DNA from: an uncultured virus (IMG/VR IMGVR_UViG_3300021961_000029)
Taxonomy: Duplodnaviria; Heunggongvirae; Uroviricota; Caudoviricetes
Virus record (IMG/VR): IMGVR_UViG_3300021961_000029
Direction: 5' to 3' (one strand)
DNA: 64,000 nucleotides
Shown: piece by piece, positions 7,953 through 20,700 of the stretch
Layout of the letters: each line of letters opens with the position of its first letter
Numbering within the stretch: the stretch's first letter is position 1
Made by a program: the position numbers and the translations under genes
The notes under the pieces: model-generated
What the model was told of the DNA's origin: nothing
Database searches by the model: none
Seen by the model: only the letters and a program-made list of their open reading frames with translations

Positions 7953-8414
7953 TTAAATTCTCACCAAATGGTTTGCACTGTAAGTCACCATAGCACCTGC
8001 GTGTTTGTATCTTACCTTGTATCCCATACCCTCAACCAAACCAACCGCTTGTCTTAAAACTTTGTTTGATTTATATCTTGGGTCAGGATTTAAGTCTATA
8101 TCAATCCATGTGGCTTTTGGTAAACCATTATTTCTCAAATGTTCAGCAACTTCAACAGCTTTCCAAACTTCGGTCATTAATCTACTTGATGTATCTTTTT
8201 CAAATGGTGTAACGTCTTTAGTACATAATACGTGTGCACCCTTACCTGTTGTGTAAAGTGCAATAACCACTCCATAAACCGTTTTTGAATTACTAAATGA
8301 TTGTGAATCCGAACCAATTAATATCTCAACATCAGTTTTATCCACCAAATAATCTTTGATGTAACCAATAACGTCAGTTATGGGTGTTCCGTACAATGTT
8401 CTAAATTTTGTCAT
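7953..8414 (-). CDS. RNase H-like YkuK/DUF458 family protein
   Basis: ILIGSDSQ, RLMTEV, IDIDLN and ANHL motifs. Confidence 0.8.
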   Translation of the reverse strand: MTKFRTLYGTPITDVIGYIKDYLVDKTDVEILIGSDSQSFSNSKTVYGVVIALYTTGKGAHVLCTKDVTPFEKDTSSRLMTEVWKAVEVAEHLRNNGLPKATWIDIDLNPDPRYKSNKVLRQAVGLVEGMGYKVRYKHAGAMVTYSANHLVRI

Positions 8415-8445
8415 ATTACATATTATTCTAGTTATAAGTATTTTG

Positions 8446-8533
8446 CGGAAAGTGAGGGGCTCGAACCCTCGCGCCGATTACTCGACCTAACGGTTTAGCA
8501 AACCGTCCCCTTCACCAACTTGGGTAACTTTCC
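8446..8533 (-). tRNA. tRNA-Ser(GCT)
   Basis: acggt-TT GCT AA-accgt, long variable arm. Confidence 0.95.
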
Positions 8534-8571
8534 TCTCGACATATTGGTTTTTTTATGATTTAAAAATTTTG

Positions 8572-8642
8572 TTGTCCCGCAAGGATTCGAACCTCAATTC
8601 TCTGGACCAAAACCAGATGTGCTGCCGTTACACCACAGGACA
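8572..8642 (-). tRNA. tRNA-Gln(TTG)
   Basis: tctgg-TT TTG GT-ccaga. Confidence 0.95.
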
Positions 8643-8695
8643 ATAATAACAAATAGATTCTCACTAACCCGATTTAGTAGTCTCTATAATGATTG

Positions 8696-8767
8696 AGCGA
8701 ATAGCCGGAATCGAACCGACATCTCCTACTTGGAAGGAAGGAGTAATGACCATTATACGATATTCGC
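8696..8767 (-). tRNA. tRNA-Gly(TCC)
   Basis: loop CT TCC AA; GCGAATA/TATTCGC acceptor. Confidence 0.93.
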
Positions 8768-8836
8768 AAAAAGTAAACCCGGGCCCAACAAGCCGTTGTC
8801 GTACCAACGGAAGGGCCCTTTTTAAGGTTTACTTAG

Positions 8837-8909
8837 AGCGGAAAACGAGACTCGAACTCGCGACCCTCACCTTGGCAAGGTGATGCTCTACCAACTGAGC
8901 TATTTCCGC
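8837..8909 (-). tRNA. tRNA-Gly(GCC)
   Basis: tcacc-TT GCC AA-ggtga. Confidence 0.96.
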
Positions 8910-8972
8910 GGGAGTAGCCTTCCCATAACGGAGACTCATAGGTGAGTTTTGGAGTTAAGGGTACGACTACAT

Positions 8973-9344
8973 TTATTGTTGTTTTTCGTATGAAACAGAA
9001 TCTTTTGTGATTGGACCACCTTCAACCCATGTGTCACACCATTTTTTTCCTGAACACATAAAGTGGTGCATCCAACAATAACCAATTTCACCACTATTAT
9101 CACTCATACAATCTTTCATTCTTGATGAAATATCAAACGCAACACAATTTCCACAATTTTGATTTTTTTCTTTTGCTTCTTCAGTTGGTAATCCGTACTG
9201 ATGTGTCTTTTCGATTTTTTTCTTATTGGTGTCGTTAAGTTCAGTATCTTTTGTTGATTTGGGGCATTCCATCTCAGCTTCAGATAATAATCTTTTATTT
9301 AATCTTTCAATAAGTTGTTTTTTCTTTTTTAATTCAATTCCCAT
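8973..9344 (-). CDS. Cys-rich hypothetical protein (HiPIP-like Cys spacing)
   Basis: CGNC...GYC...C...WCDTW. Confidence 0.7.
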   Translation of the reverse strand: MGIELKKKKQLIERLNKRLLSEAEMECPKSTKDTELNDTNKKKIEKTHQYGLPTEEAKEKNQNCGNCVAFDISSRMKDCMSDNSGEIGYCWMHHFMCSGKKWCDTWVEGGPITKDSVSYEKQQ

Positions 9345-9371
9345 AGTTTTTTTATTATATAAATATCTCCG

Positions 9372-9445
9372 TGGTCCCTCACGGGCTTGAACCGTGGACC
9401 TACTGATTATGAGTCAGTTGCTCTAACCAACTGAGCTAAGGGACC
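9372..9445 (-). tRNA. tRNA with CAT anticodon, probably Ile2 (lysidine type)
   Basis: actga-CT CAT AA-tcagt; the GGTCCCTTAGCTCAG body resembles Ile2; identity is inferred. Confidence 0.85.
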
Positions 9446-9468
9446 GTATCGTTCAAATCGACGATAAT

Positions 9469-9545
9469 TGGTAGTGATGACGGGATTTGAACCCATAACC
9501 TTGACTGTATAAGAGTCCTGCTCTCACCAATTGAGCTACACCACT
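9469..9545 (-). tRNA. tRNA-Ile(TAT), CCA encoded
   Basis: gact-CT TAT AC-agtc; AGTGGTG/CATCACT acceptor. Confidence 0.88.
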
Positions 9546-10090
9546 GAATCTAATTGTAATTCGATGATTGTAAACATTGATTGTTCATCATCGTAAATTT
9601 TTATGTTTTCAGGTTCAATATTGTATGAACACATATCACAATCCCACAAAGCGAACCTTAAACCTTTTTTAAATTCATCCATGTTTTGAACATTTAATAA
9701 ACTCATGTAACACTCTAATGGATTTGGTAGGTATTTCCTCTCTAACATCTTATTGTGTTGATGGTACAACTCCCATTTTTCTTTATTACCATTTTCATCA
9801 ACACCATTCCATTCTCCACCGTGTGTTGTTGTTGAATACCATTCGGTATCCAATCTTTCATTTTCTAAAGTATCTTCTTCAGAAACTTCAATCACGGTAC
9901 GAGATTGTAACATATCTGTGGAAAGTGTTGGTAGATATCTGTGAACAATCTCCAAACCAACATAGTAACCAAGTTGATATTCAAGAGTTAATTTCTTTTT
10001 ACTCTCAACTCTTTCTTGTTTCCATTTCTCTTTCATTTCAGGTGTTATGTTTGATAACATCTCTGAAATTTTTTTACTTCTAGTTCCCAT
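9536..10090 (-). CDS. hypothetical protein (184 aa); start moved to MGTRSK
   Basis: the ORF-track start at 10180 lies inside tRNA-Tyr; ATG at 10090 has an A-rich leader. Confidence 0.75.
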   Translation of the reverse strand: MGTRSKKISEMLSNITPEMKEKWKQERVESKKKLTLEYQLGYYVGLEIVHRYLPTLSTDMLQSRTVIEVSEEDTLENERLDTEWYSTTTHGGEWNGVDENGNKEKWELYHQHNKMLERKYLPNPLECYMSLLNVQNMDEFKKGLRFALWDCDMCSYNIEPENIKIYDDEQSMFTIIELQLDSVV

Positions 10091-10103
10091 ATTAATATTT
10101 TTG

Positions 10104-10186
10104 TTGAAAGGGACGGATTCGAACCGCCGTACTCCAAAGAGAACAGATTTACAGTCTGTCGGTTTTAACCACTCACCCACCTTTCA
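10104..10186 (-). tRNA. tRNA-Tyr(GTA)
   Basis: acaga-CT GTA AA-tctgt, long variable arm, U1-A72. Confidence 0.93.
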
Positions 10187-10192
10187 ATTTTG

Positions 10193-10273
10193 TACCTCAG
10201 GTCGGACTCGAACCGACACGACTTTCGCCACTAGTTCCTAAGACTAGCGTGTCTACCATTCCACCACCAAGGC
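10193..10273 (-). tRNA. tRNA-Leu(TAG)
   Basis: ctagt-CT TAG GA-actag. Confidence 0.95.
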
Positions 10274-10349
10274 CTATTGTAGGATATCGCTTAACCTACG
10301 GTGTTGCTAGCATTGTACACCTTCGATGTTTCTATCAGCGATTTTTTTG

Positions 10350-10421
10350 CTCCCCGAGATGGATTCGAACCAACGACCACACGGTTAACAGCCGTGTGCT
10401 CTACCGCTGAGCTATCGAGGA
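10350..10421 (-). tRNA. tRNA-Asn(GTT)
   Basis: cacgg-CT GTT AA-ccgtg. Confidence 0.96.
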
Positions 10422-10426
10422 TTGTG

Positions 10427-10499
<73 letters not shown>

Positions 10500-10646
10500 A
10501 TAAAAAGATAGTGATGGAGTACCCATCTCGCTCCAATCTTAACGGCTTCTTCTGAGTTTTATCAGTGCACTGGCCGAGGGTGCTGAACACTATGAACCTT
10601 ACAACTACTTTGTCGACTTTCATTGTAAGAGTGACCACTATCTTAG

Positions 10647-10720
10647 TATCCCCGATTGGATTCGAACCAATGACCCACAGCTTAGAAGGCTGTTGCTCTA
10701 TCCAACTGAGCTACGGAGAC
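10647..10720 (-). tRNA. tRNA-Arg(TCT)
   Basis: acagc-CT TCT AA-gctgt. Confidence 0.96.
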
Positions 10721-10932
10721 AAAAAAAAGAAACAATCCTTCTACGCTCACCGTAGGTTTAGATTTTACCGATGGTTTGTTCCCCATCACCTGTTATGTGT
10801 GCACCATAGAGCAGGGTCCATTACAGAGTCTACTGAGCCGTGTCGTACCTTCCGATTGTGGTTGCGACCCACTTGGAAGTCAGTAGTCCTTTCAGTGAAG
10901 CATTATCACCTTCTGTAAGGATGTTTCTTTTG

Positions 10933-11017
10933 TACCGAGGATGGGAGTCGAACCCACACGAACATTACTGTCCAAGGGATTTTAAGTCCCTCATGTCTAC
11001 CATTCCATCACCTCGGC
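10933..11017 (-). tRNA. tRNA-Leu(TAA)
   Basis: aggga-CT TAA AA-tccct, long variable arm. Confidence 0.95.
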
Positions 11018-11023
11018 ATCTAC

Positions 11024-11046
11024 TTAAACCAATATGTCAAAGAACA
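11024..11046 (-). promoter_or_regulatory. boxA-like antitermination element, tRNA operon 1
   Basis: TGTTCTTTGACATATTGGTTTAA, identical to 14123-14145. Confidence 0.7.
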
Positions 11047-11077
11047 AATATAATCAAAATATAAGAGCGAAAATCTT

Positions 11078-11116
11078 AAAAAACAAAAAACCCGAACTTT
11101 TTTTGAGTTCGGGTTT
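11078..11116 (-). terminator. attenuator terminator of tRNA operon 1
   Basis: AAACCCGAACU/AGUUCGGGUUU stem followed by UUUGUUUUUU. Confidence 0.85.
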
Positions 11117-11142
11117 CACCTGTCTATAAGTTTTTTACTTTC

Positions 11143-11247
11143 TTACAACTTGTTTAACTCCGAACTTGGGCCACATAAATATATACCTCTCCCATTACCA
11201 CTAAGTGGATTGTTTGACGGTTGTTGTATGTATACCAAGTTCATCAT
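11143..11247 (-). CDS. leader peptide 1, MMNLVYIQQPSNNPLSGNGRGIYLCGPSSELNKL (34 aa; not in the ORF track)
   Basis: translated by hand; lies between the promoter and terminator; codons match the downstream tRNAs. Confidence 0.8.
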   Translation of the reverse strand: MMNLVYIQQPSNNPLSGNGRGIYLCGPSSELNKL

Positions 11248-11264
11248 TTCTTAAATAACTATTA

Positions 11265-11295
11265 CAAAGATACGAAAAGTTTTTTTATTTACAAG
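11265..11295 (-). promoter_or_regulatory. Bacteroidota-type promoter of tRNA operon 1
   Basis: CTTG-N19-TATCTTTG (-33/-7 layout). Confidence 0.7.
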
Positions 11296-11311
11296 TAATT
11301 TTAAAATTTTT

Positions 11312-11476
11312 TTATTTATTTTTTGATATGATTGACCACACACCACCAATTAATGTCATTGCAGCACCAATTAATTCATTAGATAAAACGTCTGTTGTTA
11401 ATCCTTTTGCTACTAATGCACCACCAATAAATGTTAATGTGTGTCTTACGATTCCTAGTATTTGTTCTTTTTGCAT
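11312..11476 (-). CDS. small two-TM holin-like protein, MQKEQILGIVRHTLTFIGGALVAKG...GGVWSIISKNK (54 aa; not in the ORF track)
   Basis: translated by hand; the RHxLTFxGG...WS pattern is recalled from putative phage holins. Confidence 0.7.
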   Translation of the reverse strand: MQKEQILGIVRHTLTFIGGALVAKGLTTDVLSNELIGAAMTLIGGVWSIISKNK

Positions 11477-11589
11477 AATTTTCTTTTGTTTGTTTTTATT
11501 TTTTATTATTACTTATAGATATTGTAATATAATAAAAAAAACATATTAATAAATTCCTTTAACAATAGGGTAACATAGGGTGTTATTTT

Positions 11590-11832
11590 TTAAAATAAAT
11601 CGTCACACCATATTGGTGTCTTCTCCCCAACATATGAACCTGACACATTAAAATCAAAGTATTCAACGGCTTCAGTCATATCCATTCCTTGTTTCATAAG
11701 GATTTCTATACACTTTTCAACAGAATAAATTAATCTCATTGAAGATTCGTCAATACCTATAACAGCATTATCAAATCCATCCGCGATTAAGATTTCTTCA
11801 CCTTCGTATTGTTCTAAAATTTTCTCTAACAT
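11590..11832 (-). CDS. conserved phage hypothetical protein
   Basis: ADGFDNAVIG...EAVEYFDFNVSGSYVGEKTP. Confidence 0.8.
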   Translation of the reverse strand: MLEKILEQYEGEEILIADGFDNAVIGIDESSMRLIYSVEKCIEILMKQGMDMTEAVEYFDFNVSGSYVGEKTPIWCDDLF

Positions 11833-11846
11833 ATTGGTTTTTTGTT

Positions 11847-11921
11847 TGGTAGCCCCTACGGGAATCGAACCCGTCTCTGGTCCGTGAAAGGGACCTGTCC
11901 TAACCGATAGACGAAAGGGCC
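11847..11921 (-). tRNA. tRNA-Glu(TTC), CCA encoded
   Basis: ggtcc-CT TTC AC-ggacc. Confidence 0.95.
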
Positions 11922-11929
11922 ATAATTTG

Positions 11930-12015
11930 CGGAGAGTGAGGGATTCGAACCCCCGTTACCTTTCGATAAAACGGTTTTCAAGACCGCCGCGTTCAACCAG
12001 CTCTGCCAACTCTCC
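11930..12015 (-). tRNA. tRNA-Ser(TGA)
   Basis: gcggt-CT TGA AA-accgt, long variable arm. Confidence 0.95.
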
Positions 12016-12306
12016 AATTTCCTTATCTGAGATTACAATAAGTAGATTTTAACGGGTTTCTCTCACTGTTTCGAGAACCATATCCCCCAACGCTCTCTGA
12101 ACATATTGCTTAAAAGTGTCCTCCATCATTGGGCCTTTCTCATTAGTGTCTTACCACATAAAAACCTGTCAACTCTATACGTCGGCGGTGCAGAGTCTTG
12201 CTACCGTTTTATCCGAATCGATACCTCATTAAGGTCGAGGATTTTTTTACCACCACTACTTTTTTAAAGAATGTAGCCAATCTTCCTGAGTATCTCTTAC
12301 CCATTG

Positions 12307-12378
12307 CGGTCCCACGGGGAATCGAACCCCGAACTCAGCCGTGACAGGGCTGCATTATAGCCGTTTAACTATGAGACC
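12307..12378 (-). tRNA. tRNA-Asp(GTC)
   Basis: cagcc-CT GTC AC-ggctg. Confidence 0.95.
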
Positions 12379-12475
12379 AATTTCGGTTTTATCCACATTA
12401 CCCTAACACATAGTGGACATGTGTTAGGTTTTGCTCAGGTAGGTTGTGACACCCTTTACACCGAAAACCCTGCAG

Positions 12476-12549
12476 AGCCTCCTGTCGGATTCGAACCAAC
12501 GACATCCTCATTACAAGTGAGGCGCTCTGGCCAACTGAGCTAAGGAGGC
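12476..12549 (-). tRNA. tRNA-Thr(TGT)
   Basis: cctca-CT TGT AA-tgagg. Confidence 0.95.
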
Positions 12550-12718
12550 GATAGTGGGTTGGAGTAGTCACGGCCAGCTCTGGTCCTTCCAACCCTTGAT
12601 ATAACCGTGGCAAAATCTGGCTCGACCCTAGTTATACCCATATTTTTATTTCAAAGAACAAACGAACAATTAAAATATAAACATGAAATTTCATATTTCA
12701 AAATATTCAATGAAAAAG

Positions 12719-12792
12719 TTGCGGGGGTGGGAATCGAACCCACGTCATTCAGCTTATGAGACTGAGCTGGAACCTCTCCAGTCCACCCCGCA
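12719..12792 (-). tRNA. tRNA-Met(CAT) with initiator-like acceptor
   Basis: TGCGGGG/CCCCGCA acceptor; loop CT CAT AA; lacks the three G-C anticodon-stem pairs. Confidence 0.85.
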
Positions 12793-12797
12793 ATGTT

Positions 12798-12874
12798 TGG
12801 TTGGAATAATAGGAATCGAACCTATAACCTTTCGCGTATCAGACGAATGCTCTAACCAATTGAGCTATATTCCA
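12798..12874 (-). tRNA. tRNA-Ile(GAT), CCA encoded
   Basis: ttcgt-CT GAT AC-gcgaa. Confidence 0.93.
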
Positions 12875-12880
12875 ATAAAG

Positions 12881-12955
12881 GGTAAATAATCGGATTCGAA
12901 CCGACGACCTTCTGAACCACAATCAGACGTTCTAACCAACTGAACTATATCTACC
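12881..12955 (-). tRNA. tRNA-His(GTG)
   Basis: tctga-TT GTG GT-tcaga; G-1:C73. Confidence 0.95.
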
Positions 12956-13011
12956 ATATTATAAGTTCTAGACCTAATAATCCCCCACTATTAGGTTCAG
13001 ACCTTATATTG

Positions 13012-13081
13012 AGGTCAATGTTGGAATCGAACCAACTCCGTTAGTTTTGCAGACTAACCGGCCTCCATGACCAAACTGACC
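13012..13081 (-). tRNA. tRNA-Cys(GCA), short D-arm
   Basis: ttagt-CT GCA AA-actaa; U73. Confidence 0.85.
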
Positions 13082-13087
13082 TTATTG

Positions 13088-13161
13088 TACTCTCGGAGAG
13101 ACTCGAACTCCCAACCCTTTCATCCGTAGTGAAATGTTCTAATCCATTGAACTACGAGAGT
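13088..13161 (-). tRNA. tRNA-Arg(ACG)
   Basis: tttca-CT ACG GA-tgaaa. Confidence 0.94.
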
Positions 13162-13166
13162 ATCAT

Positions 13167-13598
13167 TTATTTAATTCTTTCATTCCAATCATCTTCAGTA
13201 CCTAATCTAATCGGAACAAATAACGCAAACCCATCATCATCTTCAAAATGGTTACAGTCATCTTTCCTCCAACCAAATTTATATCTCATATGGTCAAATT
13301 TATTTGTTTCTTGATTCCATCTTGCAACATCTGTGTTTCGATGGTCACCAATATAAACTTGTCCGTGGATTAAATCTTTTTTGGGGATTGCACCCGCATC
13401 AATCAATCTTGGTACATAATACTCTTTCCATTCTTTTTCATTCACTCTTGGAAGGGTTGGTACGTCTTCAGGATTATTTAATTTGGGTATTCCGTTTTCC
13501 CAAAAATCTTTAATCCTTTGTTCTCTTTCCTCCTTTAGTTTCATTTTCTCAGCCTCAAATTTAATTTTTGCTGCTTCGATTCCCATTTGATTATTCAT
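13167..13598 (-). CDS. hypothetical protein embedded in tRNA operon 2
   Basis: 143-aa ORF filling the Trp-Arg gap. Confidence 0.8.
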   Translation of the reverse strand: MNNQMGIEAAKIKFEAEKMKLKEEREQRIKDFWENGIPKLNNPEDVPTLPRVNEKEWKEYYVPRLIDAGAIPKKDLIHGQVYIGDHRNTDVARWNQETNKFDHMRYKFGWRKDDCNHFEDDDGFALFVPIRLGTEDDWNERIK

Positions 13599-13673
13599 AG
13601 TTTTTAGTTTTATATGTTTTTAGATATAATTTTATTATGTACCGTTATTTTATATGTCTTTACATATAATTTG

Positions 13674-13744
13674 CACAGGTGGAGAGATTCGAACTCCCAA
13701 CAACGGTTTTGGAGACCGGTATGATACCCTTTCACCACACCTGT
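13674..13744 (-). tRNA. tRNA-Trp(CCA)
   Basis: cggt-CT CCA AA-accg. Confidence 0.92.
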
Positions 13745-13752
13745 GTATAATG

Positions 13753-13825
13753 TAGTTCCTGTCGGATTCGAACCAACGACCCTCTGCATGTAAGGCAGAT
13801 GCTCTACCAACTGAGCTAAGGAACT
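13753..13825 (-). tRNA. tRNA-Val(TAC)
   Basis: tctgc-CT TAC AT-gcaga. Confidence 0.95.
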
Positions 13826-13967
13826 AAGTCAAGGAAAGGAGAAGATGGTTCAGTGGACATCTCCTTTTACGATTGGCGTTACTTAGGTGAATACCTCCAA
13901 ACTCCGATTATATCAGTCAGTATTCACTCTCGAACTATAGACATAACCATTCCCCAATCAACCTTTG

Positions 13968-14041
13968 TGTCCCCGACGCGACTCGAACGCGTGACTCCCT
14001 CATTAAAAGTGAGGTGCTCTAACCAACTGAGCTACGAAGAC
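13968..14041 (-). tRNA. tRNA-Lys(TTT)
   Basis: cctca-CT TTT AA-tgagg. Confidence 0.95.
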
Positions 14042-14046
14042 AAGTG

Positions 14047-14119
14047 TGGTACCGACTGGATTTGAACCAGTGACACCCAGATTTTCAGTCTGGTGCTCTA
14101 CCTACTGAGCTACGGTACC
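14047..14119 (-). tRNA. tRNA-Phe(GAA)
   Basis: ccaga-CT GAA AA-tctgg. Confidence 0.96.
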
Positions 14120-14122
14120 AAA

Positions 14123-14145
14123 TTAAACCAATATGTCAAAGAACA
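14123..14145 (-). promoter_or_regulatory. boxA-like antitermination element, tRNA operon 2
   Basis: exact 23-nt copy of 11024-11046. Confidence 0.7.
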
Positions 14146-14151
14146 TCTTTG

Positions 14152-14221
14152 TGGACACTGTGGGAATCGAACCCAATCGTTCTGATTGCAAATCAGACGG
14201 TCTGCCGTTGACATCAGGCCC
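14152..14221 (-). tRNA. tRNA-Ala(TGC), atypical D-arm and acceptor
   Basis: tctga-TT TGC AA-tcaga; G3-U70 present. Confidence 0.8.
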
Positions 14222-14223
14222 AT

Positions 14224-14257
14224 AAAACAAAAAAACCTCGAGATTTCTCCCGAGGTT
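14224..14257 (-). terminator. attenuator terminator of tRNA operon 2
   Basis: AACCUCGGGA-GAAA-UCUCGAGGUU followed by UUUUUGUUUU. Confidence 0.85.
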
Positions 14258-14285
14258 CTTAAAGTATCGTTTTAAACTAAACAAC

Positions 14286-14375
14286 TCACAAGACACCTCG
14301 GGACATGCAAATATCAGCCACCTCTGCCCATTTTGAACAGATTGTAAACGACATTGTATGTGTTGAGCGTATCAT
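14286..14375 (-). CDS. leader peptide 2, MIRSTHTMSFTICSKWAEVADICMSRGVL (29 aa; not in the ORF track)
   Basis: translated by hand; lies between the promoter and terminator; codons match the downstream tRNAs. Confidence 0.8.
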   Translation of the reverse strand: MIRSTHTMSFTICSKWAEVADICMSRGVL

Positions 14376-14406
14376 CGAAAGTTTATTTAATTTTTAAAAT
14401 CTTTTA

Positions 14407-14438
14407 CAAAGATAACAATAAGTATTCGGAAAAACAAG
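14407..14438 (-). promoter_or_regulatory. Bacteroidota-type promoter of tRNA operon 2
   Basis: CTTG-N20-TATCTTTG. Confidence 0.7.
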
Positions 14439-14535
14439 AAAAGTTTAAAATTTTTTTAAAATAATATATATGAAAATCTGAATTGCCGTGGTATTTATAG
14501 TAAACCAAATAATAAAACTAAACTAAATTACAACT

Positions 14536-14790
14536 ATGAACTTTAAAAAATGGATTATTGACCTATTCAAAGACGAAAGAGGGTCAACTTCAATCAAACC
14601 GGTAATCGCGCTCTTAGGTGCGTTATTCCTTTGCGGAACCATGATGGCAAACTCTTTTACACATGGTGACATTAAACCATCAGAAGAATTGGTAAATGCG
14701 GTAATGGTAATTACTGCAATTGGAATGGGTGCAGATACTTTAGACAAGTTCTCACATAAGAAAAAATCAGAAGACGAAGTTTCTGAATAA
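14536..14790 (+). CDS. small two-TM membrane protein
   Basis: two hydrophobic helices and a charged tail; terminator at 14797-14821. Confidence 0.75.
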   Translation: MNFKKWIIDLFKDERGSTSIKPVIALLGALFLCGTMMANSFTHGDIKPSEELVNAVMVITAIGMGADTLDKFSHKKKSEDEVSE

Positions 14791-14836
14791 GAATTACGGG
14801 GTCTAATAACCCCGTTTTTTCCTTTTTTTCTTTTTT

Positions 14837-15334
14837 GTGATGAAAAGATTACCCATCATATTACTATTATTTTTAATATCATTTGGATTTTCTAATCTAA
14901 ATGCTCAAACTATTGTTGTTGATACTGTTATCAATAACATTAAAATTGGTCCGTTTACTGAAAACAAAAATTTAGCTTTTGGTGTAAAAAACATCATTGA
15001 AGAAATCATAAACGAACAGGATAGTTTAATTCTGATTACAGATAAAAATAAAGCCGACTACAAAATTAAAGTTGAACTTATATTTTTTGACATTGTAACA
15101 ACTAACTCGGGGGTTAGTATTTTTCACGAAGATAAAACAACGACTGTGATAAGAATGAAAGGTGTTTTATACAAAGGTGATAAAAAAATTAAACAGGAAT
15201 TCTCGGAAGGTAAATCTACCGAAATTTCAACCTCAACTATTATGATTGATGAGGGTGGTAAATTCAATCAACAATCTGCTAGTTCGGCATTAAAGAAAAC
15301 AACTCAAACCCTAATAAACAAATTAATACTATGA
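14837..15334 (+). CDS. secreted protein, possibly CsgG/TolB_N-like fold
   Basis: signal peptide ending NLNAQ; alpha/beta pattern ending SALKK, like the 18095 protein. Confidence 0.6.
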   Translation: MMKRLPIILLLFLISFGFSNLNAQTIVVDTVINNIKIGPFTENKNLAFGVKNIIEEIINEQDSLILITDKNKADYKIKVELIFFDIVTTNSGVSIFHEDKTTTVIRMKGVLYKGDKKIKQEFSEGKSTEISTSTIMIDEGGKFNQQSASSALKKTTQTLINKLIL

Positions 15335-17590: not shown

Positions 17591-18120
17591 ACAATCAACC
17601 AACCGGATTTAGAGACCTTCTTAACGCAATGATGAAAAGAAGGTGGTTTATTACCGCGATTGTGTTAGGTGGTTTTATGTTTATCATGGCTGGAATTTTC
17701 GCGGCTATTATAGGTAAAAATGAAATCGGTGGTGAATGGAAAGAATTACTTCTCCTACTATTAGGTGCTTTCATAGGTTCTTATGGTAAAATTATTGACT
17801 ATTGGTTTAGTGATACCGATAAGGATAAGATGTTAGTACAAAAAATGGATGAGGAAGATGGTGTTTCTTTTTCAAACACCGCAGATATGAAATCATCAAA
17901 TAATGAAACCAAAAACGAACCAATCACCGAGTCAACATCAAAAGTTGGTGTTGAAATTGATGAAGATGGTGATGGTGTTATGGACGGTTTAGATTATGAC
18001 AACGATGGTATAATTGATGAGTATTTTGAACATCGCCAATGCGAACATGTTTGGGGTGACCAAGACAATGACGGTGAGTTGGAATGTTTGAAATGTGGTA
18101 AAATACAAGACCCCGAATAA
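17584..18120 (+). CDS. two-TM protein with DxDxDG Ca-binding loops and a C-terminal Zn-like motif
   Basis: DEDGDG, DYDNDG, DQDNDG; CEH...CLKC. Confidence 0.75.
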   Translation: MVNNQPTGFRDLLNAMMKRRWFITAIVLGGFMFIMAGIFAAIIGKNEIGGEWKELLLLLLGAFIGSYGKIIDYWFSDTDKDKMLVQKMDEEDGVSFSNTADMKSSNNETKNEPITESTSKVGVEIDEDGDGVMDGLDYDNDGIIDEYFEHRQCEHVWGDQDNDGELECLKCGKIQDPE

Positions 18121-18880
18121 AATGAAAAAATTTGTCATAGAAAAACTATTATCACCAGTAATTCTGATAATACTATGGTTTGTATTGATGTTTGTCTTCG
18201 CCAATACTGTAAGTGCACAGGTTGTTGGTAAAACACAAACAGAACAATATAAAGCATCGTTTGAAACTAATGTGAGCATTGATTCACTAATGGATTATGA
18301 CGGACCACAAATTCCAATACAAATTCTAAAAATTGGAATCAGTGATGAAGTATATGAACAATATCCTGAATTAAAAGAAAAGAAAGTAGGTTTAGGTGTG
18401 GCAAATATAACATTAGAATATTTGGAGAATTTAAATAGATTCACATTTACTGAGGATAAAACCGAAATCAAAAATAGAATGGTGAAACAATACCAAGCTT
18501 CTCAAGCGGGTATCAGTTATGATACTTTAAATGGTAGAGGAAAAATACGTTTAGCACACTATTTTGTTACAATTGAAGTTTATGAATTTTCAGTGAGTGA
18601 GGATGAGACAGTTAATCTTAGTAATGGTGTTAAAAACACTGTTGTTACAAGATTAGGGTTACAAGTTAGATTCACCGATGCAGAAACGGGTCAAATAATT
18701 GCGGCTAGTGGATTGGGTGAATCGGTTACCGTTAGAGAATTAAGTTTACTAAATGACGATAATTTAAGTGAAGTTAAATTTAATCAATCGACAATAGGAA
18801 TTAGTACCAAAAAAGCATTAGATATTGCATGTTCTAGAATTCTATTAAGAATGATAAAAAAGGGTGTATTCCCTAAATAA
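18095..18880 (+). CDS. CsgG/HfaB-like secreted protein (start probably near 18122)
   Basis: LENLNRF...LGLQVRFTDAETGQIIAASG...STKKAL. Confidence 0.7.
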   Translation: MVKYKTPNKMKKFVIEKLLSPVILIILWFVLMFVFANTVSAQVVGKTQTEQYKASFETNVSIDSLMDYDGPQIPIQILKIGISDEVYEQYPELKEKKVGLGVANITLEYLENLNRFTFTEDKTEIKNRMVKQYQASQAGISYDTLNGRGKIRLAHYFVTIEVYEFSVSEDETVNLSNGVKNTVVTRLGLQVRFTDAETGQIIAASGLGESVTVRELSLLNDDNLSEVKFNQSTIGISTKKALDIACSRILLRMIKKGVFPK

Positions 18881-18939
18881 TTAATAATGTTTGATAATAC
18901 TAATAAAAAGGGGGTAAAACCCCTTTTTTAATATACACT

Positions 18940-20700
18940 ATGAACATTAAGACATTAATATTAACATTTTTTCTTACTTTCGTATGTAATGTATCGAAAG
19001 CACAAGTATCAACGTATACTTTTATAGACCCCTGTACAAAAGAAGTCACAATATTTAGTGTACCAATACAGGGGGGTAAAACGATGATTATTTTTTTAAA
19101 TAATGTTGGTAGTTTTGACGCGAACGATTTATCCAATGGTACATTTTCCAATTGGGTAAATCAGGTTTATACCACATACAGACAAACAAACCCATGTTCA
19201 CAACAACAGGGTCAGGTAACTCAAAACCAAATAACCGCCCAAATTATTGGTAGTACGGTTCAGTCAGTTGTGAGTTCGATTTTGTCAAGTAGTCAAGCAC
19301 AATCATCTAGTTTAGAAACTGGTTCGTCGGGTAGTAGTGATGCTGGTGGTAAGGATAATAAAAGTTCTGATAAGAAGAAAAACAATAATAACCAAGGTAA
19401 TGGAAGTAATTCATCTCAATCAAATACTACGAATAATAGTACAACTCAAAATGGAGGACAATCCCAATCGAATTCAGGAACTAATACAACAAATGGAGGA
19501 GGTAACTCGACTCAAGGAAGTGGAAATTCAACAAATGGAGGAACGTCATCAAGTACAGGTAACTCAACTCAGGGGGGAAATTCAACGACTCAACCGTCTG
19601 TAGGTTCGGGTAACTCTAATGGGACATCCCCATCAAACAATTCGGGTTCGAACAACGGTGGTTCAGGGTCTACAGGTGGTTCTAATAACGGAAATGGGTC
19701 CTCATCAAATAACGGAGGTTCAAATGGTTCGAGCACCACAGGTGGTTCGGGAACAACCAACGGAACAAACACAGGAAATAATGGTTCAGGAAGTTCGGGA
19801 ACTTCAGGTAATAACGGAGGTTCCGGTGGTTCTACCACCACAGGAAATAGCGGTAGTTCGGGAAACTCAAATAATGGTGGAACAGGTACATCCAATGGGA
19901 ACAATAATCAAAACAACACCCAAAAACAAGGTGAAGAAGTTGGTGCAACAACACAAATGAACAATGATGCCCACAACGATAATAACGCGGGTGGTTCCGG
20001 TGGTTCAAGTGGTGGTGGAAAAGGTAAATCGGGTAGTAATGGTGGTGCGAGGTCTAACCCTATCATTGTTTCTTCTGATGTTACCTCCGCTCAAAATTTG
20101 AATAGAACGTTTACCCCAATAGTAAACATTGGGACAAGTAAATCATCAATGACAGGTTTATCAAGTTATGGGGTAACTGGTATGGTTTGGTTAAATTTCA
20201 AACAGTTTGCTGTGTCAACAAAATATACTAAAATACATTATAATAAAACAAAAAAGTTGAAGTTCATTCATAACATAAACCTGACAGGGGTTTACACTTA
20301 TGGTAATTATTTAGGTTTTATTGGTTATAGTGGTATTTTAAATGGTGGAAAATATGGTATTACGGGTTTTAACGTAAGTGCTGCTGCGACAATTATATCG
20401 GAAGAAAAGAATGGTTATTATTCACCATCTATCACCGCTTTTTACACAAGACCATTTAAAGTCGGTAAAAAATTAATTGTGTCACCCGAATTGTATGTTA
20501 TTTCAACACCTTTAGTTTATTCATCCAAAGACAACGTATCAATAACTGATAGATATGTGAGTGGTTTTATTGGTAGTGGTTTTGACTATCAAATCTCAAA
20601 ACGTTTTAAGTTAAATGTTAACTATAAGGCGAACATGAGTACAAACCCTGAATTTCCAATTCTATCATTTTTCTTAGTTGGTAGTAAGATAAATTTATGA
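18940..20700 (+). CDS. secreted protein with a long Gly/Ser/Asn/Thr region and a C-terminal beta-barrel-like domain
   Basis: signal peptide; about 250 aa of GSN low complexity; amphipathic strands ending FLVGSKINL. Confidence 0.75.
   Translation: MNIKTLILTFFLTFVCNVSKAQVSTYTFIDPCTKEVTIFSVPIQGGKTMIIFLNNVGSFDANDLSNGTFSNWVNQVYTTYRQTNPCSQQQGQVTQNQITAQIIGSTVQSVVSSILSSSQAQSSSLETGSSGSSDAGGKDNKSSDKKKNNNNQGNGSNSSQSNTTNNSTTQNGGQSQSNSGTNTTNGGGNSTQGSGNSTNGGTSSSTGNSTQGGNSTTQPSVGSGNSNGTSPSNNSGSNNGGSGSTGGSNNGNGSSSNNGGSNGSSTTGGSGTTNGTNTGNNGSGSSGTSGNNGGSGGSTTTGNSGSSGNSNNGGTGTSNGNNNQNNTQKQGEEVGATTQMNNDAHNDNNAGGSGGSSGGGKGKSGSNGGARSNPIIVSSDVTSAQNLNRTFTPIVNIGTSKSSMTGLSSYGVTGMVWLNFKQFAVSTKYTKIHYNKTKKLKFIHNINLTGVYTYGNYLGFIGYSGILNGGKYGITGFNVSAAATIISEEKNGYYSPSITAFYTRPFKVGKKLIVSPELYVISTPLVYSSKDNVSITDRYVSGFIGSGFDYQISKRFKLNVNYKANMSTNPEFPILSFFLVGSKINL

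What the first reader, a model, noticed from the sequence alone, without database searches (positions are those of the whole stretch)
11078..11272. Leader 1: a 34-codon ORF matching operon 1, with 1:2, 2:3 and 3:4 alternative helices
Codons: ATG ATG AAC TTG GTA TAC ATA CAA CAA CCG TCA AAC AAT CCA CTT AGT GGT AAT GGG AGA GGT ATA TAT TTA TGT GGC CCA AGT TCG GAG TTA AAC AAG TTG TAA. 26 of the 32 non-Met codons belong to operon-1 boxes (23 of 26 for codons 3-28), although those boxes are only 25 of 61 codons. Both Ile codons are ATA and the only Arg is AGA, matching the unusual Ile-TAT/Ile2 and Arg-TCT tRNAs. AGUUCGG(A)GUU (11166-11156) can pair with the terminator 5' arm AACCCGAACU. GAACUUGG (11242-11235) can pair with CCAAGUUC (11169-11162) and would mask the antiterminator when the leader is untranslated. 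This is the classical attenuator layout.
Basis: seen in the sequence. Interest (0 to 1): 0.88.

Follow-up and report, generated by a model that had tools for sequence, protein, structure and literature searches.

The report
Leader-peptide attenuator guarding phage tRNA genes
A 34-codon mini-gene and a transcription stop signal sit in front of a block of phage tRNA genes, and the mini-gene contains at least one codon for every tRNA in that block, so it looks like a switch that makes more tRNAs when any of them runs short.

Summary

**The ORF and its codons.** The ORF 11247..11143(-) exists as written. 26 of its 32 non-Met codons are read by the 12 tRNAs encoded downstream, against a background codon usage of 0.40 (p=2.6e-6). 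This is the highest fraction among 195 small ORFs in the window. Every downstream tRNA has a codon in the ORF.

**A second unit.** The unit at 14414..14231(-) does the same for the other 13 tRNAs. Only 1 of 200,000 random tRNA partitions fits the two leaders as well.

**Relatives.** In 29 leader units from 16 related phage loci, all 313 downstream-tRNA/leader pairs have a cognate codon. Cognate codons make up 82% of the part upstream of the last ten codons and 48% of the last ten. The last ten hold an invariant GUUCGG that pairs with the terminator 5' arm.

**The helices.** The 1:2 helix covaries. Antiterminator strands match at least seven different terminator sequences across lineages. An unrelated 735-kb phage has a leader holding all six Leu codons before five tRNA-Leu genes.

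**Caveats.**
- There are no expression data.
- A possible second promoter lies after the terminator.
- Each tRNA species is represented by only one to five codons, not by a run.

Nine literature searches found no prior report.

The parts
11265..11294 (-). Promoter-like site P1: TTG (11294-11292), a 19-nt spacer, then TATCTTTG (11272-11265). The box ends 17 nt before the leader ATG.
   Evidence: Read from the sequence. A TAnnTTTG box lies within 75 nt upstream of the leader ATG in 26 of 29 two-operon units. It sits 17-21 nt from the ATG in the 14 leader-1 units that have it. That this is the Bacteroidota -7 consensus is recalled knowledge, not tested here.
11143..11247 (-). Leader ORF 1: 34 codons plus TAA. 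Codons about 2-24 form the sensor window.
   Evidence: 26 of 32 non-Met codons are cognate to operon-1 tRNAs, and all 12 tRNAs are covered. The ORF is conserved in relatives, with third codon positions the most variable (18 variable columns against 10 and 6 in clade A).
11235..11242 (-). Region 1, the 5' strand of the anti-antiterminator hairpin (GAACUUGG).
   Evidence: It pairs with 11169-11162 in the minimum-energy fold. Clade A has GAACUUGG/CCAAGUUC and clade B has GAACAUAA/UUAUGUUC. Pairs 26-104, 28-102 and 29-101 of alignment A2 change on both sides.
11156..11169 (-). Region 2, codons 27-31. It pairs either with region 1 (11169-11162) or with the terminator 5' arm (11166-11156).
   Evidence: The GUUCGG core is invariant in 19 of 19 relatives. 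Duplex energy with the terminator arm is -12.1 kcal/mol; 1 of 200 shuffled ORFs reaches it, and 0 of 18 arms from other unit types.
11087..11117 (-). Intrinsic terminator: 5' arm 11117-11106 (region 3), loop 11105-11099, 3' arm 11098-11087 (region 4).
   Evidence: 12 pairs, 5 G-C, loop of 7. Hairpin energy is -15.6 kcal/mol. A terminator stands at the same place in all related two-operon loci.
11078..11090 (-). T tract of the terminator (six T, one G, six T). Its first four T belong to the 3' arm.
11045..11052 (-). Possible second promoter box P2 (TATATTTG), between the terminator and tRNA-Leu.
   Evidence: A TAnnTTTG box lies in this spacer in 12 of 18 leader-1 units. Its function was not tested.
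11024..11045 (-). Conserved 22-mer just before the first tRNA, with core TTCTTTGACAT at 11044-11034. Function unknown.
   Evidence: The window holds two copies of the 22-mer at up to 3 mismatches, at 11045-11024 and 14144-14123. The 11-mer is exact only at these two places. The core is kept before the first tRNA in all 18 leader-1 units (in L018 with a changed end) and in distant clades.
8445..11017 (-). tRNA operon 1, the regulated genes: 12 tRNAs from Leu-TAA to Ser-GCT, with interspersed ORFs and a freshwater-1 RNA.
14231..14414 (-). Paralogous unit, leader 2: TATCTTTG box 14414-14407, ORF 14375-14286 (29 codons), terminator 14260-14231.
   Evidence: 21 of its 26 non-Met codons are cognate to operon-2 tRNAs, or 23 if the Ala-like tRNA is counted. 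All 13 tRNAs are covered. The fold z-score is -6.5.
14152..14221 (-). tRNA-Ala-like gene starting a few bases after the leader-2 terminator.
   Evidence: Rfam tRNA model, 31.8 bits against a gathering score of 29. The anticodon loop holds UGC and there is a G3-U70 pair. ARAGORN calls Ala-TGC at this place in L013, L015 and L026.

Best explanation
Leader 1 is a ribosome-mediated transcription attenuator that sets how much transcription from the promoter-like site at 11294-11265 reaches tRNA operon 1.

The leader RNA can fold in two ways. With no ribosome on it, its 5' half pairs with its 3' half (1:2), and the terminator (3:4) forms. A ribosome that runs quickly to the stop codon covers region 2, which lies in codons 27-31, and the terminator again forms. 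A ribosome held up anywhere in about codons 2-24 keeps 1:2 open and leaves region 2 free. Region 2 then pairs with the terminator 5' arm (2:3) before the 3' arm is made, and RNA polymerase reads on into the tRNA genes.

The sensor window holds at least one codon for each tRNA encoded downstream. A shortage of any one of these charged tRNAs would therefore raise transcription of the whole operon. This is an OR-gate with negative feedback on tRNA supply. A second unit does the same for operon 2.

Shown here: the ORF, the codon match, the three helices with their conservation and covariation, the geometry, and the family-wide rule. Inferred: translation of the ORF, the promoter, kinetic competition between the helices, and the response to tRNA supply.
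For: **1. Codon match in the window.**
- 26 of 32 non-Met codons are cognate, against 0.403 background (p=2.6e-6). This is rank 1 of 195 small ORFs.
- Leader 2 ranks first for the other tRNA set, at 23 of 26.
- The Fisher test for the two leaders against the two sets gives p=1.6e-7.
- 47 of 58 codons fit the real operon split. Only 1 of 200,000 random 11/12 splits of the 23 non-Met tRNAs does as well.
- Leader 2 uses CGC and CGA, which are 3 and 21 of 532 Arg codons in phage genes. They match tRNA-Arg-ACG in operon 2.

**2. Family rule.**
- 80 related loci were fetched. Of the 56 with at least 8 tRNAs, 44 have a leader-ORF-plus-terminator unit by an automatic rule. Seven more have one by eye or by identity.
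- In 29 units of two-operon phages, a downstream tRNA has a cognate codon in the leader in 313 of 313 cases. For tRNAs not downstream the figure is 197 of 383.
- Windows of real genes cover about 8.6 of 12-13 tRNAs on average.

**3. Co-variation of leader and tRNA set.**
- L041 operon 1 lacks tRNA-Gln and its leader has no Gln codon. All other 15 leader-1 units have both.
- Thr codons are absent from the 5 clade-A leader-1 units, where tRNA-Thr lies in operon 2. They number 2-4 where it lies in operon 1.
- L045 has Glu and Asp tRNAs downstream, and Glu and Asp codons in the early part of its leader.

**4. Position effect.** The cognate fraction is 498 of 608 (0.82) before the last ten codons and 136 of 283 (0.48) in the last ten. 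This is expected if only stalls upstream of region 2 matter.

**5. Structure.**
- The fold is more stable than shuffles.
- With region 4 left out, a ribosome mask at codons 1-14 or 20-23 gives the 10-pair 2:3 helix. A mask at codons 25-35 abolishes it.
- The 1:2 helix has 54 double-change cells against 27 in shuffles (0 of 500), and it exceeds all slid controls.
- The leader-2 2:3 helix has 14 double-change cells against 6.2 (0 of 500).
- GUUCGG is invariant in 19 of 19 relatives, including L041 and L045, where it is read in another frame.
- The best duplex of each lineage's terminator arm lies in the last 1-25 nt of its own leader ORF, for at least 7 different stem sequences.

**6. Geometry.** The distance from stop codon to terminator is 18-34 nt in 40 of 40 units. 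In 8 of 40 units the first tRNA starts 2-11 nt after the T tract, which leaves no room for another promoter.

**7. Independent lineage.** LR756501.1 has a 22-codon leader with 7 Leu codons, using all six Leu codons, and a terminator before five tRNA-Leu genes. A second leader has a run of eight Tyr/Asn/Asp/Cys/Ile codons before exactly those tRNAs. Neither pattern occurs in any of 3828 22-codon windows of real genes in that locus.
Against: - No transcript, ribosome or probing data exist.
- With region 4 present, the terminator wins at every one of the 35 ribosome positions. The switch must therefore be kinetic, which was not tested.
- With the mask at codons 15-19, the 1:2 hairpin re-forms in the model.
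- Each tRNA species is sampled by only 1-5 codons, not by a run as in trpL or hisL, so sensitivity may be low.
- A TAnnTTTG box (11052-11045) lies between terminator and tRNA-Leu in 12 of 18 leader-1 units. A conserved TTCTTTGACAT of unknown role also lies there. Either could give attenuator-independent transcription of operon 1.
- L044 keeps the terminator and spacer but has no leader ORF.
- The match is one-sided. Codons of tRNAs that are not downstream are also present in 197 of 383 cases. L005-L009 keep an almost unchanged leader although only 4 tRNAs remain. Clade-B leader-2 units keep Thr codons after tRNA-Thr moved.
- In single-operon clades some tRNAs are not covered, for example 14 of 18 in L054 and Arg-ACG missing in four units.
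- The 2:3 duplex is weak (-7 to -9 kcal/mol, no better than shuffles) in clade-B leader-2 units.
- Counts across relatives are not phylogenetically independent.
- Host tRNAs read the same codons, so the sensor cannot tell phage tRNAs from host tRNAs.
- The one paper I read on attenuator surveys does not mention Bacteroidetes.
Confidence: 0.75

Rival explanations
1. The device is an attenuator, but it senses translation in general rather than the particular tRNAs encoded downstream. Examples would be whether ribosomes are working at all, or overall amino-acid supply. The varied codon content simply samples many tRNAs.
For: - The same three-helix layout is present.
- Single-operon clades have leaders with 19-20 different amino acids in 30-46 codons.
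- Codons of tRNAs that are not downstream are present in 197 of 383 cases.
- L005 keeps its leader after losing most of its tRNAs.
Against: - The two leaders of one phage split the codons along the operon boundary (47 of 58; 1 of 200,000 random splits).
- tRNA-specific codon choices fit: CGC/CGA against AGA, ATY against ATA.
- The LR756501.1 leaders are tailored to Leu only, or to Tyr/Asn/Asp/Cys/Ile only.
- The leader of L041 lacks Gln codons where the Gln tRNA is absent downstream.
Confidence: 0.08
2. The leader ORF with its own promoter and terminator is a self-contained small gene, or an insulator ending the upstream transcription unit. The tRNAs are transcribed from a promoter after the terminator (the TATATTTG box and/or the TTCTTTGACAT element). 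The codon match then has some other cause, such as a peptide or RNA acting in trans.
For: - A TAnnTTTG box lies in the spacer in 12 of 18 leader-1 units.
- TTCTTTGACAT is conserved before the first tRNA in close and distant clades, and a related motif recurs in LR756501.1.
- L044 keeps terminator, spacer and tRNAs without a leader ORF.
- The terminator is thermodynamically dominant.
- No terminator was found after the upstream genes 11832..11312, so this hairpin also ends that unit.
Against: - In 8 of 40 units the first tRNA starts 2-11 nt after the T tract, and L024 and L045 have no box in a 25-32-nt spacer. There, read-through is the only route.
- A stand-alone gene does not explain a region 2 that copies the terminator 3' arm in at least 7 lineages, is kept in another reading frame, and sits at a fixed distance from the stop codon.
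- It also does not explain why cognate codons are confined to the part upstream of region 2.
- The peptides have no shared motif between lineages beyond their composition.
Confidence: 0.12
3. It is chance: an ordinary terminator preceded by a spurious ORF in AT-rich DNA.
For: - Small ORFs are common. There are 195 of 25-45 codons in the window.
- No Rfam family matches the region. The best leader hit is Thr_leader at 17.8 bits against a gathering score of 55.
Against: - The ORF ranks 1 of 195 with p=2.6e-6.
- The ORF is conserved across relatives down to 49% identity of the neighbouring protein.
- The helices covary.
- An independent lineage has the same device.
Confidence: 0.02

Closest known systems
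Leader-peptide attenuators of amino-acid operons (trpL, hisL, leuL, thrL, ilvL, pheL of Proteobacteria)
   Same: A short ORF lies in the 5' leader, followed by an intrinsic terminator. Alternative 1:2, 2:3 and 3:4 helices are present. The regulatory codons lie where a stalled ribosome frees the antiterminator strand. Completed translation or no translation gives termination.
   Different: The regulated genes are tRNAs, not biosynthetic enzymes. The sensor is one to five codons for each of 11-24 tRNA species instead of a run of one or two amino acids. Region 2 lies inside the ORF, just before the stop codon. There is no sequence or Rfam-model similarity. The setting is a phage of a probable Bacteroidota host without Shine-Dalgarno sites.
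pheM leader controlling pheST, and other leader-peptide attenuators of aminoacyl-tRNA synthetase genes (hisS paralogues in bacilli; passages of PMC2965389 read)
   Same: Attenuation by a leader peptide controls a component of the translation apparatus in response to charged-tRNA supply.
   Different: Those sense one amino acid and control a synthetase. Here the product is the sensed molecule's own gene, the tRNA, which gives direct feedback. Many species are polled at once.
T-box riboswitches
   Same: They couple tRNA status to read-through of a terminator by way of an antiterminator.
   Different: A T-box binds one uncharged tRNA directly through a specifier codon and needs no ribosome or ORF. 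No T-box model matched here. Here an ORF with conserved start, stop and codon content does the reading.
Translation-sensing leaders of resistance genes (ermC, cat; named in PMC2965389)
   Same: A short leader ORF reports slowed translation through alternative RNA folds.
   Different: Those respond to drug-stalled ribosomes and mostly control translation initiation. They have no codon set matched to downstream genes.

Membership tests
Ribosome-mediated (leader-peptide) transcription attenuator | Short translatable ORF between promoter and regulated genes | tested here: met
   A 34-codon ATG ORF lies at 11247..11143(-), 17 nt after a TAnnTTTG box. It is conserved in relatives, with excess third-position change in 3 of 4 groups. 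Translation itself was not observed.
Ribosome-mediated (leader-peptide) transcription attenuator | Regulatory codons that match the regulated pathway | tested here: met
   26 of 32 codons are cognate and 12 of 12 tRNAs are covered. In relatives the figure is 313 of 313. The cognate fraction is 0.82 in the sensor part against 0.48 in the last ten codons.
Ribosome-mediated (leader-peptide) transcription attenuator | Intrinsic terminator between the leader ORF and the regulated genes | tested here: met
   A 12-bp hairpin with a T tract lies at 11117..11078. It is conserved in all two-operon relatives.
Ribosome-mediated (leader-peptide) transcription attenuator | Antiterminator mutually exclusive with the terminator, and freed by an upstream stall | tested here: met
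   A 10-pair 2:3 helix forms with ribosome masks at codons 1-14 and 20-23, and is lost at codons 25-35. The core is invariant, with a covarying flank pair. The match is lineage-specific. Kinetic competition was not tested.
Ribosome-mediated (leader-peptide) transcription attenuator | Anti-antiterminator (1:2) that forms without translation | tested here: met
   It is present in the minimum-energy fold. Three compensatory pairs separate the two clades.
Ribosome-mediated (leader-peptide) transcription attenuator | Read-through rises when the cognate charged tRNA is scarce | not testable with these tools
   This needs reporters, Term-seq or coupled in vitro assays.
Rfam leader families (Thr_leader, Trp_leader, His_leader, Leu_leader and others) | Match to the covariance model at the gathering score | tested here: not met
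   The best hit is Thr_leader at 17.8 bits against 55. Nothing in 11000..11330 reaches a gathering score.
T-box riboswitch | Stem I, specifier loop and T-box sequence (Rfam model) | tested here: not met
   There is no T-box hit in 8000..15000 at E up to 1, nor in 11000..11330 at E up to 10.

The most novel reading that the evidence does not exclude
Large phages of Bacteroidota run their tRNA arrays under closed-loop control. Each array, or each sub-operon, is fronted by a bespoke 'roll-call' leader peptide that holds a codon for every tRNA it governs. Where one operon holds nearly all tRNAs, this becomes a 31-codon peptide with all 20 amino acids. A shortfall in any single tRNA species switches on the whole set. 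Such a shortfall could come from phage codon demand, from host shut-off, or from a tRNA-cleaving host defence. The device has been re-tailored repeatedly as tRNAs moved between operons, and it occurs in at least two unrelated phage lineages.
Probability: 0.6. Interest if true: 0.93.

Novelty: new variant of a known kind. Interest (0 to 1): 0.9.

Why it matters
**Regulation of phage tRNAs.** Phage tRNA arrays are usually discussed as fixed codon-usage aids or as spares against host tRNA loss. How their expression is regulated is largely unknown.

**A new form of feedback.** A leader peptide that polls every tRNA of its operon would be the first case, to my knowledge, of tRNA genes controlled by leader-peptide attenuation. 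Nine searches of the held library found no other. It would mean direct feedback from the supply of a tRNA to the transcription of its own gene.

**It is testable.** The model predicts which codon swaps and which tRNA depletions change read-through.

**Uses.**
- It offers a sequence signature for finding tRNA operon boundaries in metagenomic phages: a high-diversity short ORF, a terminator-arm mimic, a terminator, then tRNAs.
- It gives a natural multi-input sensor design for synthetic biology.

**Reach.** It would extend ribosome-mediated attenuation to phages of a phylum without Shine-Dalgarno-led initiation.

Tried and rejected
- **Own genome.** The window's assembly is not held. I used the nearest virus record, G001, which only showed a second copy of the promoter region.
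- **Full-length folds with ribosome masks.** These never give the antiterminator, because the terminator is more stable. I therefore used folds truncated before region 4.
- **Sigma-70 promoter scan.** It found fewer sites than shuffles did (16 against 20.2) and none at the leader. The full Bacteroidota pattern TTTG-N17-21-TAnnTTTG gives 6 matches against 4.4 expected, and none at the leader.
- **TAnnTTTG upstream of long ORFs.** The enrichment is weak (9 against 4.7 expected, P=0.05). The promoter call therefore rests on conservation in relatives.
- **DNA search of GenBank phages with the leader region.** It matched only the tRNA-Leu gene.
- **Protein search with the neighbouring RNaseH-like protein.** No relative above 36% identity was found, so no cultured close relative is available.
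- **crAss-like phage cr271_1 (L084).** It has only 2 tRNAs nearby and was not informative.
- **Stenotrophomonas phage RAS14 (L086).** Its tRNAs are scattered among protein genes. I did not inspect its terminators for leader ORFs.
- **Upstream tRNA groups in the L059, L062 and L079 clade.** The groups Leu-TAA, Thr and Gly have no leader of their own.
- **Correction to my notebook.** My notes give 24 of 29 for the promoter box. The recount is 26 of 29.
Full report
**What is there.**
- The window carries 25 tRNA genes, all on the - strand between 14119 and 8445. The surrounding genes look like those of a large phage. The nearest held virus record is a 116-kb fragment rated 38% complete.
- A host in Bacteroidota is likely. 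A 637-aa protein carries a type-IX secretion sorting domain, gene starts lack Shine-Dalgarno sites, and TAnnTTTG boxes stand before the leader units. The meaning of that box is recalled knowledge.
- The finding's ORF is real: 11247..11143(-), 34 codons, peptide MMNLVYIQQPSNNPLSGNGRGIYLCGPSSELNKL.
- It is preceded by TTG-N19-TATCTTTG, which ends 17 nt before the ATG.
- It is followed 25 nt after the stop codon by a 12-bp hairpin with a T tract, 11117..11078.
- Then comes a 67-nt spacer and tRNA-Leu-TAA, the first of 12 tRNAs.

**Is the codon match more than chance?**
- The 12 downstream tRNAs read 25 non-Met codons. These make up 0.403 of 15,678 codons in 45 long ORFs of the window.
- The leader has 26 of 32, a binomial p of 2.6e-6. 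It ranks first of 195 ATG ORFs of 25-45 codons; the next is at 0.68.
- Each of the 12 tRNAs has at least one codon in the leader.
AGA is 391 of 532 Arg codons and ATA is 335 of 1170 Ile codons.

**A second unit makes the case.**
- A copy of the promoter region (75% identical over 67 nt) led to 14414..14231(-). This holds the same box, a 29-codon ORF (14375..14286, MIRSTHTMSFTICSKWAEVADICMSRGVL) and a different terminator.
- 21 of its 26 non-Met codons are read by the 13 tRNAs of the other operon, and all 13 are covered. It ranks first of the 195 ORFs for that set.
- Its two Arg codons are CGC and CGA, which are 3 and 21 of 532 in phage genes. They match tRNA-Arg-ACG.
- Its two Ala codons match a tRNA-like gene directly after its terminator. 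This scores 31.8 bits on the Rfam tRNA model, has anticodon UGC and a G3-U70 pair. ARAGORN calls it Ala-TGC in three relatives.
- Together, 47 of 58 codons fit the real operon split. Only 1 of 200,000 random 11/12 splits of the 23 non-Met tRNAs does as well.

**Folding.**
- The 185-nt leader-1 RNA folds into a long hairpin that pairs the 5' and 3' halves of the ORF, including GAACUUGG with CCAAGUUC, plus the terminator. The energy is -45.2 kcal/mol, z -3.3, and 0 of 200 shuffles are as stable.
- Leader 2 does the same, with z -6.5.
- With the whole terminator present, it forms whatever the ribosome position, in 35 of 35 positions. Any switch must therefore be kinetic.
- With the RNA cut before region 4, the result depends on where the 30-nt ribosome mask sits:
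  - A-site at codons 1-14 or 20-23: the 10-pair helix forms between 11166-11156 and the terminator 5' arm.
  - Codons 15-19: the 1:2 hairpin re-forms.
  - Codons 25-35, stop included: region 2 is covered and no antiterminator forms.

**Relatives.**
- The RNaseH-like protein next to the array (7953..8414, PF04308) recovered 80 viral contigs at 49-99% identity.
- tRNA maps and a terminator scan show a conserved plan. In two-operon phages there are exactly two terminators, one before each tRNA operon, each preceded by a short ORF.
- Phages with one large operon have a single unit before it.
- Of 56 loci with at least 8 tRNAs:
  - 44 have such a unit by an automatic rule.
  - 7 more have one that the rule missed, because the T run is interrupted or by identity.
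  - L044 has the terminator but no ORF.
  - 4 loci begin inside the array.

**The leader follows the tRNA set.**
- In 29 units of two-operon phages, a downstream tRNA species has a cognate codon in its leader in 313 of 313 cases. Species not downstream have one in 197 of 383 cases (Met left out; rows are related, so this is not a probability).
- Windows of equal length from real genes of the same locus cover about 8.6 of 12-13 tRNAs on average. Full coverage is reached in 0 to 2.7% of 5000 draws per unit.
- Changes go together:
  - L041 has no tRNA-Gln in operon 1 and no Gln codon in its leader. The other 15 leader-1 units have both.
  - The five clade-A leader-1 units have no Thr codon and no tRNA-Thr downstream. 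Where tRNA-Thr lies in operon 1, the leader has 2-4 Thr codons.
  - L045 has Glu and Asp tRNAs downstream and carries Glu and Asp codons early in its leader.
- The rule is one-sided, and codons can linger:
  - L016 and L045 have Thr codons without the tRNA.
  - Clade-B leader-2 units keep Thr codons.
  - L005-L009 keep the leader with only 4 tRNAs left.
- Single-operon leaders are close to pangrams:
  - L057:7952-8047 has all 20 amino acids in 31 codons and covers 19 of 19 tRNAs.
  - L053 covers 22 of 22 and L077 covers 24 of 25.
  - L054 covers only 14 of 18.

**Where the cognate codons lie.** Before the last ten codons, 498 of 608 non-Met codons are cognate (0.82). In the last ten, 136 of 283 are (0.48, about background). 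The last ten codons hold region 2. This is what the model predicts, since a stall there would cover region 2.

**Helices in relatives.**
- Alignment A2 (19 leader-1 units, mean column identity 65%) keeps GUUCGG in the ORF and CCCGAAC / GUUCGGG in the terminator, in all 19.
- In L041 and L045 the GUUCGG is read in another frame, so it is kept as RNA and not as peptide.
- The flank pair of the 2:3 helix is A-U in 7, U-A in 5, G-U in 1 and unpaired in 4.
- The 1:2 helix changes from GAACUUGG/CCAAGUUC to GAACAUAA/UUAUGUUC between clades. It has 54 double-change cells against 27 in shuffles (0 of 500), and is 77% paired against 27-43% when slid. These are few independent events.
- In alignment A1 (14 leader-2 units) three pairs of the 2:3 helix covary: C-G 6 / U-A 5 / U-G 3; G-C 9 / G-U 3 / A-U 2; A-U 9 / G-C 4. 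The terminator itself is 98.9% paired.
- Across 29 units with at least 7 different terminator stems, the best duplex between the terminator 5' arm and the ORF always ends 1-25 nt before the ORF end.
- For 20 of the 29 units, no more than one arm from the other unit types does as well (0 in 18 units, 1 in two).
- It is weak (-7 to -9 kcal/mol) in clade-B leader-2 units and in the L059/L062 group.

**Geometry.**
- The distance from stop codon to terminator is 18-34 nt in 40 of 40 units.
- A TAnnTTTG box lies upstream in 26 of 29 two-operon units, 17-21 nt from the ATG in leader-1 units.
- In 8 of 40 units the first tRNA begins 2-11 nt after the T tract, so it can only be reached by read-through.

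**An independent lineage.** LR756501.1 is a 735-kb uncultured phage whose RNaseH-like protein is 32% identical. It has two such units in locus L085.
- *Unit A.*
  - The ORF at L085:11392-11460 has 22 codons.
  - It holds 7 Leu codons, which include all six Leu codons.
  - Its 3' end copies the terminator 3' arm.
  - Five tRNA-Leu genes follow, with anticodons TAG, GAG, CAA, TAA and TAG.
- *Unit B.*
  - The ORF at L085:18044-18112 holds eight consecutive Tyr, Asn, Asp, Cys and Ile codons.
  - A terminator follows.
  - Next comes an L7/L12 homologue.
  - tRNAs for exactly those five amino acids follow it.
- None of 3828 22-codon windows of real genes in that locus has all six Leu codons, or such a run.

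**What argues against, or limits, the claim.**
- The spacer after the leader-1 terminator holds a TAnnTTTG box (11052-11045) in 12 of 18 units.
- The spacer also holds a conserved TTCTTTGACAT. This is exact only twice in the window, both times before the first canonical tRNA of an operon.
- Either element could be a promoter, so operon 1 may also be transcribed independently.
- One to five codons per tRNA species is a thin sensor.
- Host tRNAs read the same codons.

**Comparison and novelty.**
- The layout is that of classical leader-peptide attenuation.
- No Rfam leader or T-box model matches.
- New here are the regulated genes (tRNAs), the many-species codon roll-call, the split of codons between two leaders, and the phage setting.
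- Nine full-text searches found no report of such a device.
- Of PMC2965389 I read matched passages only. It says that by 2010 leader peptides were known from Proteobacteria and Actinobacteria, with new cases in Firmicutes. It does not mention Bacteroidetes.
- I recall, unverified, that a 2004 comparative study listed candidate attenuators in Bacteroidetes/Chlorobi.

**Verdict.**
- The attenuator interpretation is supported.
- It is most likely a tRNA-supply sensor, with confidence 0.75.
- It is a new variant of a known kind.
- Interest is high.

Noticed in passing
window 14152-14221 (-): A tRNA-like gene that ARAGORN does not call. It scores 31.8 bits on the Rfam tRNA model, has anticodon UGC, a G3-U70 pair and an acceptor stem with one unpaired base. 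It would be the 26th tRNA (Ala) and would complete the set of 20 amino acids. The same sequence is kept in 11 relatives, and ARAGORN calls Ala-TGC at this place in L013, L015 and L026.
   Followed up: partly
window 11024-11045 and 14123-14144 (-); also L057, L060, L065 and L085: A conserved element with core TTCTTTGACAT lies 20-27 nt before the first canonical tRNA of each operon, after the terminator. A related GTTCTTTGAAAT recurs in intergenic regions of LR756501.1. It could be a promoter, a processing site or a protein-binding site; this is unresolved.
   Followed up: partly
window 10763-10825 (-): A freshwater-1 RNA (RF02979, 73.8 bits against a gathering score of 72) sits between tRNA-Leu-TAA and tRNA-Arg-TCT inside operon 1. 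Other long structured-looking spacers lie between tRNAs, for example 10500-10645.
   Followed up: no
L085 (LR756501.1) 11392-12260 and 18044-20700: An unrelated 735-kb phage has a Leu-only leader before five tRNA-Leu genes. It also has a Tyr/Asn/Asp/Cys/Ile leader before a ribosomal protein L7/L12 homologue (18219-18590) and the matching tRNAs. A PD-(D/E)XK endonuclease ORF (19089-19484) interrupts that array.
   Followed up: partly
L010, L011, L014, L015 (about 1.6-2.1 kb after the RNaseH-like gene): ARAGORN calls a tRNA with anticodon CTA (amber-reading, labelled Pyl) in four close relatives. None is called in the window. Whether these phages read TAG as sense was not examined.
   Followed up: no
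window 11312-11476 (-) and 11590-11832 (-): Two small protein genes lie between operon 2 and leader 1. One is a Phage_holin_10 family member (54 aa, E 3.4e-18). No terminator separates them from leader 1, so transcripts from operon 2 may run into the leader.
   Followed up: no
window 7953-8414 (-): An RNaseH-like (PF04308, DUF458) protein gene directly follows the tRNA array. It is syntenic with tRNA arrays in 80 related contigs. Distant homologues occur in Vibrio and Ruegeria phages, where some are annotated as ribonuclease. It is a candidate tRNA-processing enzyme.
   Followed up: no
L005-L009, L021, L022, L027, L030, L031, L051: Some close relatives have only 4-5 tRNAs left at this place. 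L005-L009 still keep an almost unchanged leader 1 and terminator. This suggests recent tRNA loss without loss of the leader.
   Followed up: partly
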